A stretch of DNA of 22,976 nt from a virus. Its lineage: Duplodnaviria > Heunggongvirae > Uroviricota > Caudoviricetes. Positions 4,081 to 4,773 of this stretch are shown here, piece after piece; position 1 is the first letter of the stretch, and each line of letters opens with the position of its first letter. A model generated the notes under the pieces. The model searched no databases. It had not been told where the DNA came from and worked only from the letters and a program-made list of their open reading frames with translations. Location: IMG/VR virus record IMGVR_UViG_2563366959_000008. One strand, given 5' to 3'. A program made the translations under genes and the position numbers.

Positions 4081-4116
4081 CGCGGGTTTTCGCTATTTAT
4101 GAAAATTTTCCGGGAT

Positions 4117-4216
4117 CCATGTCCGGTTTCTCTTCAAGTTAACTATATGAAAAATATAAAAACAGGTCTTCTGTGAACCGGACATGAACAAAAAACAGAC
4201 ATGTAAACCGGACATG
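4117..4216. repeat. Candidate cosB terminase-binding (R-site-like) repeats: three copies of CCGGACATG
   Basis: catgtccgg (inverted) at 4117-4125, ccggacatg at 4178-4186 and 4208-4216, between cosN and Nu1 with an A/T-rich spacer; the sequence diverges from recalled lambda cosB from about 4114. Confidence 0.45.
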
Positions 4217-4263
4217 ACCGGTTTTGTTGTGATTGTGAGGTGAGAGTTTTTGCGAGGTGAGGA

Positions 4264-4773
4264 GTGGCTACGCAGACTGAAGTTGCCAGGCATTTAAGTC
4301 TGACCGATCGCCAGCTTCGCAGATTGCAGAAATTGCCGGGTGCCCCGATATCGAATAAGCGAGGGCAACTGGATCTGGATGCCTGGCGCGATTTTTACAT
4401 ATCGTATCTGAGGAGAAGTAAAAACGATGTGCCTGATGGCGATAGCGAAGACGACTATGAGGAGAAATTGCTTATTGCCAGATGGGAACTGACAGCAGAA
4501 CAGGCTGTTACACAGCAGTTAAAAAATGAGGTGTCAAAAGGAAAACTTATTGACACCGGGTTCTGTATTTTTGCCCTCAGTAAGCTGGCAATGGCGTTAT
4601 CCAGTACGCTTGATTCCATCCCTTTATCCATGCAGCGACAGTTTCCTGATTTAACACCGCGCCATCTTGACCATCTGAAAACCCTTATTGCTAAGGGGGC
4701 AAATCAGTGTGCGCGGGCAGGGGATAAATTACCGGATTTACTCGATGAATATATCAGAGCAACAACTGAATAA
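4264..4773 (+). CDS. nu1: Terminase small subunit (Nu1-like)
   Basis: 169 aa from GTG 4264; the C-terminal part (FCIFALSKLAMALSSTLDSIPLSMQRQFPDL…LDEYI) resembles recalled lambda Nu1, the N-terminal DNA-binding part does not; overlaps the start of A. Confidence 0.8.
   Translation: MATQTEVARHLSLTDRQLRRLQKLPGAPISNKRGQLDLDAWRDFYISYLRRSKNDVPDGDSEDDYEEKLLIARWELTAEQAVTQQLKNEVSKGKLIDTGFCIFALSKLAMALSSTLDSIPLSMQRQFPDLTPRHLDHLKTLIAKGANQCARAGDKLPDLLDEYIRATTE

What the first reader, a model, noticed from the sequence alone, without database searches (positions are those of the whole stretch)
4114..4773. Mosaic packaging-specificity module: lambda-type cosN but non-lambda cosB repeats and a hybrid Nu1
Directly after the lambda-identical stretch the sequence diverges and carries three copies of CCGGACATG (one inverted, two direct). 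These sit where lambda carries the R3/R2/R1 terminase-binding sites. The Nu1 N-terminal DNA-binding part (MATQTEVARHLSLTDRQLRRLQKLPGAPISNKRGQLDLDAW…) is unlike recalled lambda Nu1, whereas the C-terminal gpA-interaction part is lambda-like. That is the pattern expected for a recombinant terminase with altered cosB specificity, as in the phage 21 versus lambda packaging-specificity classes.
Basis: partly seen in the sequence, partly recalled or inferred. Interest (0 to 1): 0.5.

Follow-up and report, generated by a model that had tools for sequence, protein, structure and literature searches.

The report
Fourth lambda-type packaging-recognition cassette
Next to a lambda-identical DNA cutting site, this E. 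coli prophage carries its own set of terminase landing sites and a matching DNA-binding head on the small terminase subunit: an exchangeable packaging-recognition cassette, common in pathogenic E. coli, whose specificity has not been described or tested.

Summary
cosQ (4039-4045) and cosN (4069-4080) are lambda-type, and identity to lambda ends at window 4113. Three exact CCGGACATG copies follow, and they occur nowhere else in the window. They lie at the R3, R2 and roughly R1 positions of lambda and phage 21, with an IHF-like core at the I1 position.

Pfam's Phage_Nu1 model does not match the first 48 residues of Nu1. They are predicted to form a winged helix-turn-helix ("type A").

In relatives from Klebsiella, Salmonella, Citrobacter, Enterobacter, Aeromonas, Pseudomonas and metagenomes:
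- Type A heads always come with (T/G)TCCGGT about 54 bp after cosN.
- N15-type heads come with GGTTGTTGT, and lambda-type heads with lambda/21-like R sites.
- Arg20 in the recognition helix goes with GTCCGG (5 of 5 lineages). Asn, Asp or Lys goes with TTCCGG (12 of 12).

Comparison with relatives carrying other heads bounds an exchangeable cassette at about 4110-4465.

Corrections: the rest of Nu1 is only 36-40% identical to lambda, so this is an old lineage rather than a lambda hybrid. The fold is shared with lambda Nu1.

The cassette is in 1155 of 5426 complete E. coli genomes, including O157 Sakai Sp4 and Sp14. I found no description of its cosB. Packaging specificity is inferred, not tested. 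It is a new member of a known kind, of moderate interest.

The parts
4039..4045 (+). cosQ (GGGTCCT), the packaging-termination subsite, 30 bp before the cohesive end
   Evidence: Identical to lambda. GGGTCC is kept in nearly all type A loci, including those from distant hosts. It is labelled cosQ in Asadulghani 2009 Fig. S8 for the same sequence.
4069..4080 (+). cosN: the 12-nt lambda cohesive-end sequence GGGCGGCGACCT, nicked by gpA
   Evidence: Exact match to lambda bp 1-12. Nearly invariant in 41 unique variants of this locus: one variant sequence at one position.
4081..4113 (+). Spacer next to cosN (lambda bp 13-45, includes the I2/IHF-labelled stretch). This is the last lambda-identical segment and the left homology arm of the cassette.
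   Evidence: Identical to lambda up to bp 45. Homology with type B and type C relatives also stops at about 4109.
4118..4129 (-). R3': CATGTCCGGTTT, an inverted copy of AAACCGGACATG at bp 50-61. Proposed as the critical TerS-binding site.
   Evidence: Same position as R3 of lambda (50-65), 21 (50-65) and N15 (48-60). The 16 bp around it are invariant in 41 of 41 unique variants. The core TCCGGT lies at bp 53-55 in all eight enterobacterial-type complex cosBs. It is also present at the R3-equivalent position in the more distant type A loci.
4140..4152 (-). I1': an IHF-like core. TAACTATATGAAA on the top strand, TTTCATATAGTTA on the bottom strand, two mismatches to WATCAANNNNTTR, followed by an A/T-rich tract.
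   Evidence: Lies at bp 72-84, against 74-86 for I1 of lambda (TAACTTAATGTTT) and 21. Lambda's accepted I1 has the same number of mismatches. Relatives L011, L013 and L020 carry perfect consensus cores at the same offset.
4176..4186 (+). R2': AACCGGACATG at bp 108-118, inverted relative to R3'
   Evidence: CCGG-to-CCGG spacing from R3' is exactly 55 bp in all eight diverged complex type A cosBs. The comparable spacing is 57 bp in lambda, phi80 and 21, and 58 bp in the N15/Monarch type. Seven of 41 variants carry a change inside this 9-mer.
4205..4224 (.). R1': the near-palindrome AAACCGGACATGACCGGTTT at bp 137-156. It holds a third direct copy overlapping a copy in the R3 orientation (CATGaCCGGTTT).
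   Evidence: D1, D2, I4. The core is kept in 39 of 41 variants. It is absent from several relatives (L015, L017, L020), as expected for an accessory site. It is also flagged as a terminator-like hairpin followed by a T-run.
4264..4428 (+). Nu1 (TerS) N-terminal 'type A' DNA-binding domain, residues 1-55. Helix 4-10, recognition helix 15-22 (DRQLRRLQ), wing 23-36, helix 38-55.
   Evidence: AlphaFold2 model of the domain alone, pLDDT 85. Foldseek TM 0.81 to RppC (6hlk), 0.70 to 6hn7_B and 0.67 to phage TerS DNA-binding domains (7lwr, 7lw0), plus MerR/RacA/RdfS-type winged HTH proteins; E-values are not significant for so small a domain. Matches PHROG 57, 'terminase small subunit', at 3e-10.
4264..4773 (+). 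nu1: terminase small subunit, 169 aa, GTG start
   Evidence: Pfam Phage_Nu1 1e-18 over residues 49-150. Annotated 'terminase small subunit' in RefSeq. Matches the O157 Sakai Sp14 Nu1 as shown in Asadulghani 2009 Fig. S8.
4745..6673 (+). A: terminase large subunit, overlapping nu1 by 29 nt as in lambda
   Evidence: Pfam GpA_ATPase 3e-56 and GpA_nuclease 5e-71. 66% aa identity to lambda gpA overall and 56% in the N-terminal 48 aa. Start position as in RefSeq.
4114..4465 (.). The exchangeable specificity cassette: cosB plus Nu1 codons 1 to about 67
   Evidence: Blastn against relatives with other heads loses similarity between about 4109 and 4447-4489, while the flanks stay 75-93% identical. The same pattern holds between Salmonella loci L020 (type A) and L024 (type C) or L023 (type B).

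Best explanation
This is the packaging-initiation site and recognition subunit of a lambda-family cos phage, with recognition determinants of a type not described in the papers I could reach.

Proposed mechanism, by analogy with lambda and 21:
1. The Nu1 N-terminal winged helix-turn-helix (type A) binds the core TCCGGT inside the repeats.
2. A Nu1 dimer bridges R3' (4118-4129) and the inverted R2' (4176-4186) across a bend made by IHF at I1' (4140-4152).
3. R1' (4205-4224) is an accessory site.
4. Bound Nu1 holds gpA, through the Nu1 C-terminus, at the fixed distance needed to nick the lambda-identical cosN (4069-4080).

cosB plus the first 65 or so codons of nu1 behave as one cassette. It is flanked by sequences conserved across the family (cosQ-cosN on the left, the Nu1 core and gene A on the right), so homologous recombination can swap it.

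Shown here: the anatomy, the positions, the conservation, the co-variation between head type and site type, the cassette boundaries, and the predicted fold.

Inferred: that Nu1 binds these repeats, that IHF is involved, and that the packaging specificity differs from lambda, 21 and N15.
For: 1. Position. R3', I1' and R2' lie within 1-4 bp of R3, I1 and R2 of lambda and 21. Published work shows the cosN-to-R3 distance is critical in lambda.

2. Co-variation between head type and site type:
- Type A loci from Klebsiella, E. coli, Salmonella, Citrobacter, Enterobacter, Aeromonas phage phiARM81ld, Pseudomonas phage LPPA33 and GC-rich metagenomic phages all carry (T/G)TCCGGT at the R3 position.
- Loci with an N15-type head carry GGTTGTTGT, matching the published R3 of N15, GAGGTTGTTGTT.
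- The lambda-type head locus L024 carries lambda/21-like R sites.

3. Co-variation within type A:
- Helix ..R-R20-L goes with GTCCGG in 5 of 5 lineages. R-N/D/K or N-N goes with TTCCGG in 12 of 12.
- All copies within one locus carry the same variant base.
- Relatives whose helix lacks R16 and R19 lack the motif.

4. Geometry. The spacing between R3' and R2' is exactly 55 bp in eight cosBs whose spacers have diverged.

5. Polymorphism. R3' is invariant in 41 unique variants while the neighbouring spacers vary.

6. Modularity. Blastn gives sharp cassette boundaries. Three different heads are found on closely related Nu1 bodies.

7. Fold. The predicted winged HTH resembles the 6hn7 and 6hlk (RppC) structures from the TerS-Rpp study.

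8. Function in vivo:
- The same cos and Nu1 are in O157 Sakai Sp4 and Sp14. Sp4 DNA is packaged although its own nu1 is broken, which the authors ascribe to the Sp14 terminase.
- Five deposited phage genomes (PhiR12 series) carry the module at 96.5% nt identity.
Against: - There is no binding or packaging experiment for this module. Linkage alone could explain part of the co-variation, because site and head are adjacent and inherited together.
- The structural matches have non-significant E-values because the domain is small.
- The window's own I1' has two mismatches to the IHF consensus.
- R1' differs in orientation and spacing from lambda's R1 and is missing in several relatives.
- The R' sequence resembles the R sites of 21 (shared GACATGAA) and of lambda (TTTCCG against TTCCGG). 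N15 terminase is known to package lambda DNA. Cross-recognition therefore cannot be excluded.
- The 5-versus-12 lineage count is not corrected for phylogeny.
Confidence: 0.75

Rival explanations
1. The module is functionally a variant of the phage 21 or lambda specificity. The type A head recognises essentially the same kind of R site, so this cos is cross-packaged with 21- or lambda-specific phages and is not a separate specificity class.
For: - R2 of 21 (GGTCCGACATGAAA) and R2' (AACCGGACATGAAC) share GACATGAA. Lambda R3 (CGTTTCCGTTC) and the type A variant (CATTTCCGGTTC) differ by about one inserted G.
- The helix R-x-(I/L)-x-R-(W/L)-Q is shared with 21 (RTIERWQ against RQLRRLQ).
- Asymmetric cross-packaging has a precedent: N15 terminase packages lambda DNA.
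Against: - The N-terminal 55 aa are only 25% identical to 21 and to lambda in a forced global alignment.
- Pfam's Nu1 model does not match the head.
- The core invariant across the type A family, TCCGGT, is not present in the R sites of 21 or lambda. The CATG part shared with 21 varies within type A.
- Lambda and 21 discriminate more than 1000-fold on fewer differences.
Confidence: 0.13
2. The repeats are conserved for a reason other than terminase binding. They could be sites for another DNA-binding protein (a phage or host regulator, or a satellite hijacker). Alternatively the R1' palindrome could act as an RNA hairpin or terminator in the late transcript. Their association with the Nu1 head would then reflect physical linkage only.
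For: - R1' (4205-4224) and CCGGGATCCATGTCCGG (4110-4126) both score as terminator-like hairpins followed by T-runs.
- Site and head are adjacent and would be co-inherited in any case.
Against: - The motif keeps a fixed distance from cosN in hosts as far apart as Aeromonas, Pseudomonas and GC-rich bacteria, where nothing else in the intergenic region is similar.
- The base preceding the TCCGG core changes together with residue 20 of the TerS helix.
- The architecture copies the experimentally defined cosB of lambda and 21.
- There are no promoter-like sites in 3850-4350.
- Most relatives have no hairpin at R1'.
Confidence: 0.07
3. The repeats are a chance or decaying feature of a dead prophage and have no current function.
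For: This prophage copy has an IS element inserted in head gene W, so it is probably defective.
Against: - No simulation out of 200 gives such a cluster.
- The module is in 1155 of 5426 complete E. coli genomes and in deposited phage genomes.
- nu1 and A are intact open reading frames.
Confidence: 0.02

Closest known systems
Phage 21 cosB and gp1 (the 21 packaging specificity)
   Same: - Identical cosQ and cosN.
- The R3 - I1(IHF) - inverted R2 layout at nearly the same base positions.
- The R sites share a CATGTC/GACATG element.
- The helix shares an Arg at the position equivalent to 21's R21.
- The Nu1-type body is followed by an overlapping gpA gene.
   Different: - The head is only about 25% identical and has a shorter wing.
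- The R core is TCCGGT rather than TGTCGG.
- R1' is closer to R2' (30 bp) and is palindromic.
- The Nu1 body is 31-40% identical.
Phage lambda cosB (R3-I1-R2-R1) and gpNu1
   Same: - cosQ-cosN and bp 1-45 are identical.
- Same architecture and spacing.
- Same predicted winged-HTH fold.
- gpA is 66% identical.
- The mechanism is taken from this system.
   Different: - R consensus CGTTTCC(G/T)TTCT against CATGTCCGGTTT.
- Recognition helix RTIQNWQEQ against RQLRRLQKL.
- Pfam's Nu1 profile does not match the head.
N15/Monarch specificity (gp1, R = GAGGTTGTTGTT)
   Same: - It shows that a lambda-type cosN can be paired with a very different head and R site.
- It exists in both a complex (Monarch-like) and a simple (N15) cosB form. 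Type A does too: complex in enterobacteria, and a simple TTCCGGTTCCGGT just before the gene in phiARM81ld, LPPA33 and others.
- N15-type heads occur on Nu1 bodies nearly identical to the window's.
   Different: Different head sequence (MAVLLNKSDMASS...) and an unrelated R sequence.
O157:H7 Sakai prophages Sp4 and Sp14 (Asadulghani et al. 2009, PMC2669165)
   Same: - The same Nu1 protein and cos sequence as this window.
- Sp4 DNA is packaged although its nu1 is disrupted.
   Different: That paper marked only cosQ, cosN and an IHF site, and ended its alignment at GGGATCCATGT. The cosB repeats and the specificity class were not analysed.
PICI Rpp proteins and R3-PICI (Fillol-Salom 2019; Murialdo and Feiss 2022)
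   Same: - A lambda-type cosN combined with a different R3-position site, read by a different winged HTH.
- RppC (6hlk) is the best structural match to the type A head, at TM 0.81.
   Different: - Rpp is a separate hijacker protein that lacks a TerL-binding tail and pairs with the helper's TerS.
- Here the head is part of a complete Nu1 encoded directly upstream of gpA.
- No sequence-level similarity was detected to any PDB chain, RppC (6hlk) included.

Membership tests
Lambda-like cos site (cosQ-cosN-cosB) | 12-nt cohesive-end sequence related to lambda's, with the conserved bases flanking the nick sites | tested here: met
   GGGCGGCGACCT at 4069-4080 is identical to lambda, with flanks identical from about -27 to +45. 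Actual nicking cannot be tested here.
Lambda-like cos site (cosQ-cosN-cosB) | cosQ (GGGTCCT) upstream of cosN at lambda spacing | tested here: met
   GGGTCCT at 4039-4045, 30 bp before bp 1.
Complex cosB (lambda, 21, Monarch type) | A TerS-binding R3 site at about bp 48-65 after the cohesive end | tested here: met
   CATGTCCGGTTT at bp 50-61. Conserved position in all type A loci. Binding itself was not tested.
Complex cosB (lambda, 21, Monarch type) | An IHF site (I1) between R3 and R2 | tested here: inconclusive
   TTTCATATAGTTA at bp 72-84 has two mismatches to WATCAANNNNTTR, the same number as lambda's I1. Relatives have cores with 0-1 mismatches at the same offset. IHF binding was not tested.
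Complex cosB (lambda, 21, Monarch type) | R2 in the opposite orientation to R3, about 57 bp away | tested here: met
   AACCGGACATG at bp 108-118 is inverted relative to R3'. The spacing is exactly 55 bp in eight diverged loci, against 57-58 bp in lambda, 21, phi80 and type B.
Complex cosB (lambda, 21, Monarch type) | R1 in the same orientation as R3, about 100 bp from R3 | tested here: inconclusive
   The exact third copy is direct relative to R2'. It overlaps CATGaCCGGTTT (4213-4224), which is in the R3 orientation and starts 95 bp after R3'. R1' is absent in several relatives.
Phage_Nu1 (PF07471) small terminase | Nu1 central and C-terminal region, with the gene overlapping a gpA-type large subunit gene | tested here: met
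   PF07471 at 1e-18, residues 49-150. gpA domains at 5e-71 and 3e-56. The nu1/A overlap is 29 nt.
Phage_Nu1 (PF07471) small terminase | The N-terminal winged HTH as modelled by the family profile (positions 1-61) | tested here: not met
   The profile match starts at position 62. No Pfam or NCBIfam hit for residues 1-60. The fold is nevertheless predicted to be the same, and PHROG 57 covers the whole protein.
Lambda packaging specificity | R sites CGTTTCC(G/T)TTCT and recognition helix RTIQNWQEQ | tested here: not met
   Neither is present.
Phage 21 packaging specificity | R sites containing TGTCGG and recognition helix RTIERWQSQ | tested here: not met
   TGTCGG is absent, and the core here is TCCGGT. 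The helix is RQLRRLQKL. There is partial resemblance (GACATGAA).
N15/Monarch packaging specificity | R sites GGTTGTTGTT and an N-terminus of the MAVLLNKSDMASS... type | tested here: not met
   Absent in the window. Present in relatives L007-L010, L021-L023 and in N15.
Distinct (fourth) packaging specificity class | Mutual discrimination from lambda, 21 and N15 in packaging assays | not testable with these tools
   This needs helper-packaging or in vitro cos-cleavage experiments.

The most novel reading that the evidence does not exclude
Type A is a real fourth packaging specificity of lambda-like cos phages, and probably the most widespread one in pathogenic E. coli prophages. It would have a simple, readable recognition rule: a TCCGGT core, with Arg20 reading G and Asn/Asp/Lys20 going with T at the base before the core. 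It would be carried on a cassette of about 350 bp that recombination moves between phage backbones using cosN and the Nu1 core as homology arms. Many EHEC genomes hold 2-4 copies of the same cassette. One active terminase could then package several co-resident, even defective, virulence-carrying prophages, as reported for Sp4 and Sp14.
Probability: 0.5. Interest if true: 0.6.

Novelty: new member of a known kind. Interest (0 to 1): 0.45.

Why it matters
[quoted passage not shown] The field has noted that the observed diversity is modest and that few examples have been studied (Feiss 2015).

This module adds a candidate fourth specificity:
- It has the full lambda-style architecture.
- It is present in about a fifth of complete E. 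coli genomes, often in several copies per genome, including O157:H7 prophages that carry virulence genes.
- It comes with a testable amino-acid-to-base prediction (Arg20 with G) and defined cassette boundaries.

It would help predict which co-resident prophages, satellites or defective elements can be mobilised by which terminase. It would also be a natural system for studying how recognition between a winged-HTH TerS and its DNA site evolves.

It does not change the known mechanism.

Tried and rejected
- Lambda-derived hybrid Nu1: rejected. The middle part is 36% and the C-terminal 40 aa are 40% identical to lambda, and the C-terminal part is equally similar to 21. Full-length type A relatives exist in Pseudomonas and Aeromonas phages.
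- Foreign, non-homologous DNA-binding domain: rejected. The predicted fold is the MerR-like winged HTH of TerS and Rpp, and PHROG 57 spans the whole protein.
- Sequence search of the PDB: nothing useful. Foldseek with the full-length model gave only weak hits, so I re-predicted the domain alone.
- The search for related loci on species-representative genomes returned only 6 loci, none of them type A: four N15-type and two IS-truncated. The first IMG/VR scan returned 80 near-identical loci. These were useful only for the polymorphism profile. Diversity came from the look-up of encoding contigs and from later IMG/VR scans.
- Promoter or operator reading of the repeats: no sigma-70-like sites in 3850-4350.
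- Source paper for the PhiR12 phage records: not found. Their viability rests only on the GenBank records, which are deposited as phage genomes with named hosts.
- Vahanian et al. 2017, a survey of cosN in lambda-like phages, is not in the library. I could not check whether it mentions this TerS type.
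Full report
**Context.** The window is the late region of a lambda-like E. coli prophage.
- It runs from lysis genes through a PerC homologue (3241-3555) and a DUF3950/YlcI gene (3637-3861, minus strand) to cos.
- Then come nu1 (4264-4773), A (4745-6673) and W, followed by portal, protease, D, E, FI, FII and the tail genes.
- An IS3-family element sits inside W.
- The 901 bp around the finding are 100% identical to prophages in many E. coli genomes, for example O103:H2 strain 12009, where the genes are annotated as terminase small and large subunits.

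**Checking the observation.**
- CCGGACATG occurs exactly three times in the window, at 4118-4126 (-), 4178-4186 (+) and 4208-4216 (+). The shared unit extends to the 11-mer AACCGGACATG.
- None of 200 Markov-simulated sequences of the same length contained any 9-mer three times within 110 bp.
- Window 3714-4113 aligns with lambda 48156..45 at 88%. It is identical from about 27 bp before the cohesive end to bp 45, and similarity stops at 4114.
- The cohesive-end sequence GGGCGGCGACCT is 4069-4080 and cosQ GGGTCCT is 4039-4045. Window position therefore equals lambda-type bp + 4068.
- Pfam's Phage_Nu1 profile matches only Nu1 residues 49-150 (profile positions 62-163 of 164). No Pfam or NCBIfam model matches residues 1-60.

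**Anatomy compared with characterised cos sites.** The GenBank record of phage 21 annotates R3 at 50-65, I1 at 74-86, R2 at 107-122 (opposite orientation) and R1 at 150-166. The literature places lambda R3 at bp 50-65, with protein contacts at bp 55-63, and N15 R3 at bp 48-60. It also stresses that the cosN-to-R3 distance is critical. The window has:
- R3' CATGTCCGGTTT at bp 50-61.
- An IHF-like core at bp 72-84 (TAACTATATGAAA). This compares with lambda TAACTTAATGTTT and 21 TAACTTTTTGTTT at 74-86.
- R2' AACCGGACATG at bp 108-118, in the opposite orientation to R3'.
- R1' at bp 137-156. It is a near-palindrome (AAACCGGACATGACCGGTTT) holding a third direct copy overlapped by CATGaCCGGTTT in the R3 orientation.
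- The nu1 start at bp 196, against 191 in lambda.

The layout is that of a complex cosB of the lambda, 21 or Monarch kind.

**The Nu1 protein.**
- In global alignments the N-terminal 55 residues are 25% identical to lambda and to 21. The middle part is 36% identical to lambda and 31% to 21. The C-terminal 40 residues, the TerL-binding part in lambda, are 40% identical to both.
- gpA is 66% identical to lambda gpA.
- An AlphaFold2 model of residues 1-56 has pLDDT 85. It shows helix 4-10, helix 15-22, a wing at 23-36 and helix 38-55.
- Its best structural matches are MerR-like winged HTH domains. They include RppC (6hlk, TM 0.81), chain 6hn7_B from the same TerS-Rpp study (TM 0.70) and phage TerS DNA-binding domains (7lwr and 7lw0, TM 0.67). 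The E-values are not significant for so small a domain.
- PHROG 57 ("terminase small subunit") covers the whole protein.
- The head is thus a divergent homologue of the lambda Nu1 head, with a shorter wing. I call it type A.

**Heads are exchangeable.**
- Homologues from the protein search show three different N-terminal heads on closely related Nu1 bodies. Type A is MATQxEVAxHLxLTxRQLRxLQKxPGAP. Type B is MAFLLNKSDMASSIGISVQAFDKWGV. Type C is lambda-like, [28 protein letters not shown].
- N15 gp1 has the type B head.
- An exhaustive HMMER search with the head alone found 42 clusters (50% identity representatives). Apart from two very long multi-repeat proteins, the matches lie at the N-terminus of small proteins, the full-length ones being 150-210 aa. 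Some of these have non-Nu1 C-terminal parts, for example the phiARM81ld type.
- At DNA level, the window loses similarity to relatives with type B or C heads between about 4109 and 4447-4489 (Nu1 codons 62-75). The flanks remain 75-93% identical. The Salmonella loci L020 (A), L024 (C) and L023 (B) show the same pattern.
- cosB plus the head is therefore a cassette of about 350 bp, flanked by conserved cosQ-cosN on one side and the Nu1 core and A on the other.

**Co-variation of head and repeats.**
- I extracted the region upstream of nu1 in loci encoding each head type.
- Every type A locus with a DR-x-(L/V/I)-R helix carries (T/G)TCCGGT at the R3 position. Among the loci where cosQ could be located, the core lies 75-92 bp after the first base of cosQ in all but two. 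It is 83 bp in the window.
- This holds for Klebsiella, E. coli, Salmonella, Citrobacter, Enterobacter, Aeromonas phage phiARM81ld, Pseudomonas phage LPPA33 and several metagenomic phages from GC-rich hosts.
- Enterobacterial loci also have the inverted R2' copy, with CCGG-to-CCGG spacing of exactly 55 bp in all eight diverged examples. Most of these have an IHF-like core with 0-1 mismatches at the I1 offset.
- Most distant relatives have a simple cosB, TTCCGGTTCCGGT just before the start codon. This parallels N15's simple cosB.
- All type B loci and N15 carry GGTTGTTGT at R3, with inverted and direct copies further on in the complex ones. The type C locus L024 carries lambda/21-like sites.
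- Within type A, helices with Arg at position 20 go with GTCCGG in 5 of 5 lineages. Helices with Asn, Asp or Lys there, or with N-N, go with TTCCGG in 12 of 12. Fisher's exact test gives about 2e-4 if the lineages were independent, which they are not fully.
- All copies within a locus share the same variant base. Four relatives whose helix lacks R16 and R19 lack the motif.
- Among 41 unique variants of the window's own type, the 16 bp around R3' never vary. R1' is kept in 39 of 41, R2' has changes in 7 of 41, and the spacers are polymorphic.

**Mechanism.** The best-supported reading is the lambda mechanism with different recognition determinants. A Nu1 dimer docks its two winged HTH heads on R3' and R2' across an IHF-induced bend. 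R1' assists. The Nu1 C-terminus holds gpA so that it nicks the lambda-identical cosN. Binding, IHF dependence and discrimination against lambda, 21 and N15 DNA are inferred and not shown.

**A caution on specificity.** The R' sequence looks like a one-base indel variant of 21's R (CATGTCGG against CATGTCCGG) and of lambda's R (TTTCCGTT against TTCCGGTT). N15 terminase is known to package lambda DNA. Partial or one-way cross-recognition is therefore possible.

**Other rivals.** No promoter-like sites are present. R1' also scores as a terminator-like hairpin, but it is not conserved as a hairpin in relatives.

**What is known.**
- The cassette alone is in 1155 of 5426 complete E. coli genomes, at 1-4 copies per genome with a median of 2. 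These include O157:H7 and ST131 strains.
- It is also in five deposited phage genomes, the PhiR12 series.
- Asadulghani et al. 2009 aligned this same Nu1 and cos (Sakai prophages Sp4 and Sp14) with lambda. They marked only cosQ, cosN and an IHF site and stopped the alignment at GGGATCCATGT. They reported that Sp4 DNA is packaged although its nu1 is disrupted, and attributed this to the Sp14 terminase.
- Feiss et al. 2015 state that three specificities (lambda, 21, N15) have been documented.
- None of the cosB papers found in the library describes the TCCGGT-type cosB. One relevant survey, Vahanian 2017, could not be read.

**Verdict.**
The module is not a lambda hybrid but an old TerS lineage whose head and cosB travel as a cassette. 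The head is a divergent winged HTH rather than a foreign domain.
- It is a new member of a known kind, of moderate interest. It is unsurprising in mechanism. It is well defined, very common in pathogenic E. coli, and gives directly testable predictions.

Noticed in passing
window 6798-8108: An IS3-family element of about 1.31 kb (orfA 7727-8053 and orfB 6840-7730, both on the minus strand) is inserted in head gene W. This leaves a 47-aa W ORF (6657-6800). Comparison with the uninterrupted O103:H2 locus shows a 3-bp target duplication. This prophage copy is probably defective for head completion, even though cos, nu1 and A look intact.
   Followed up: partly
window 3241-3555 (+) and 3637-3861 (-): A PerC-family transcriptional activator homologue (Pfam 4e-44) and a DUF3950/YlcI-family gene lie just upstream of cos, in the segment that is 88% identical to lambda's right end from 3714 onward.
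   Followed up: no
L001 (lambda) bp 40-48; window 4108-4113: Lambda itself carries TTCCGGTTT, a type-A-like core, 14 bp closer to cosN than R3'. The break in homology between lambda and type A falls exactly at this CCGG. It could be chance, a recombination microhomology, or a relic site.
   Followed up: no
window 4118-4129 compared with L001 bp 53-64 and L026 bp 50-65, 107-122: The R sites of lambda (CGTTTCCGTTCT), 21 (CGTGTCGGTACT, CATGTCGGAC) and type A (CATGTCCGGTTT, CATTTCCGGTTC) look like one-base indel variants of one another. This suggests common descent of the sites along with the heads.
   Followed up: partly
window 4195-4204 and 4233-4261: There is an extra partial copy, ACAGACATGT, between R2' and R1'. 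There is also a tandem pair, TTGTGAGGTGAG and TTGCGAGGTGAG, that carries the Shine-Dalgarno-like sequence before the GTG start of nu1.
   Followed up: no
E. coli complete genomes: Genomes that have the cassette usually have it more than once: median 2 places, up to 4. Co-resident prophages thus share rather than diversify this recognition type. That fits the reported packaging of the nu1-defective Sp4 by another prophage's terminase in O157 Sakai.
   Followed up: partly
L005 and L006 (Shigella flexneri, E. coli), around locus position 1977-2001: In these loci nu1 is cut by an insertion sequence close to the cassette's right boundary (about codon 66), which removes cosB and the head.
   Followed up: no
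L028 (Aeromonas phage phiARM81ld), P0101, P0107-P0109: The type A head is also fused to a different, non-Nu1 C-terminal body in other small terminases. It still has TTCCGGTTCCGGT at bp 54-66 after a lambda-like cohesive end. The head and its site therefore move between terminase families.
   Followed up: partly
L200, L201, L204, L203 (IMG/VR metagenomic phages): Distant relatives with a MATQAEVA... N-terminus whose recognition helix lacks Arg16 and Arg19 have no TCCGGT motif upstream. They may represent further specificities.
   Followed up: no
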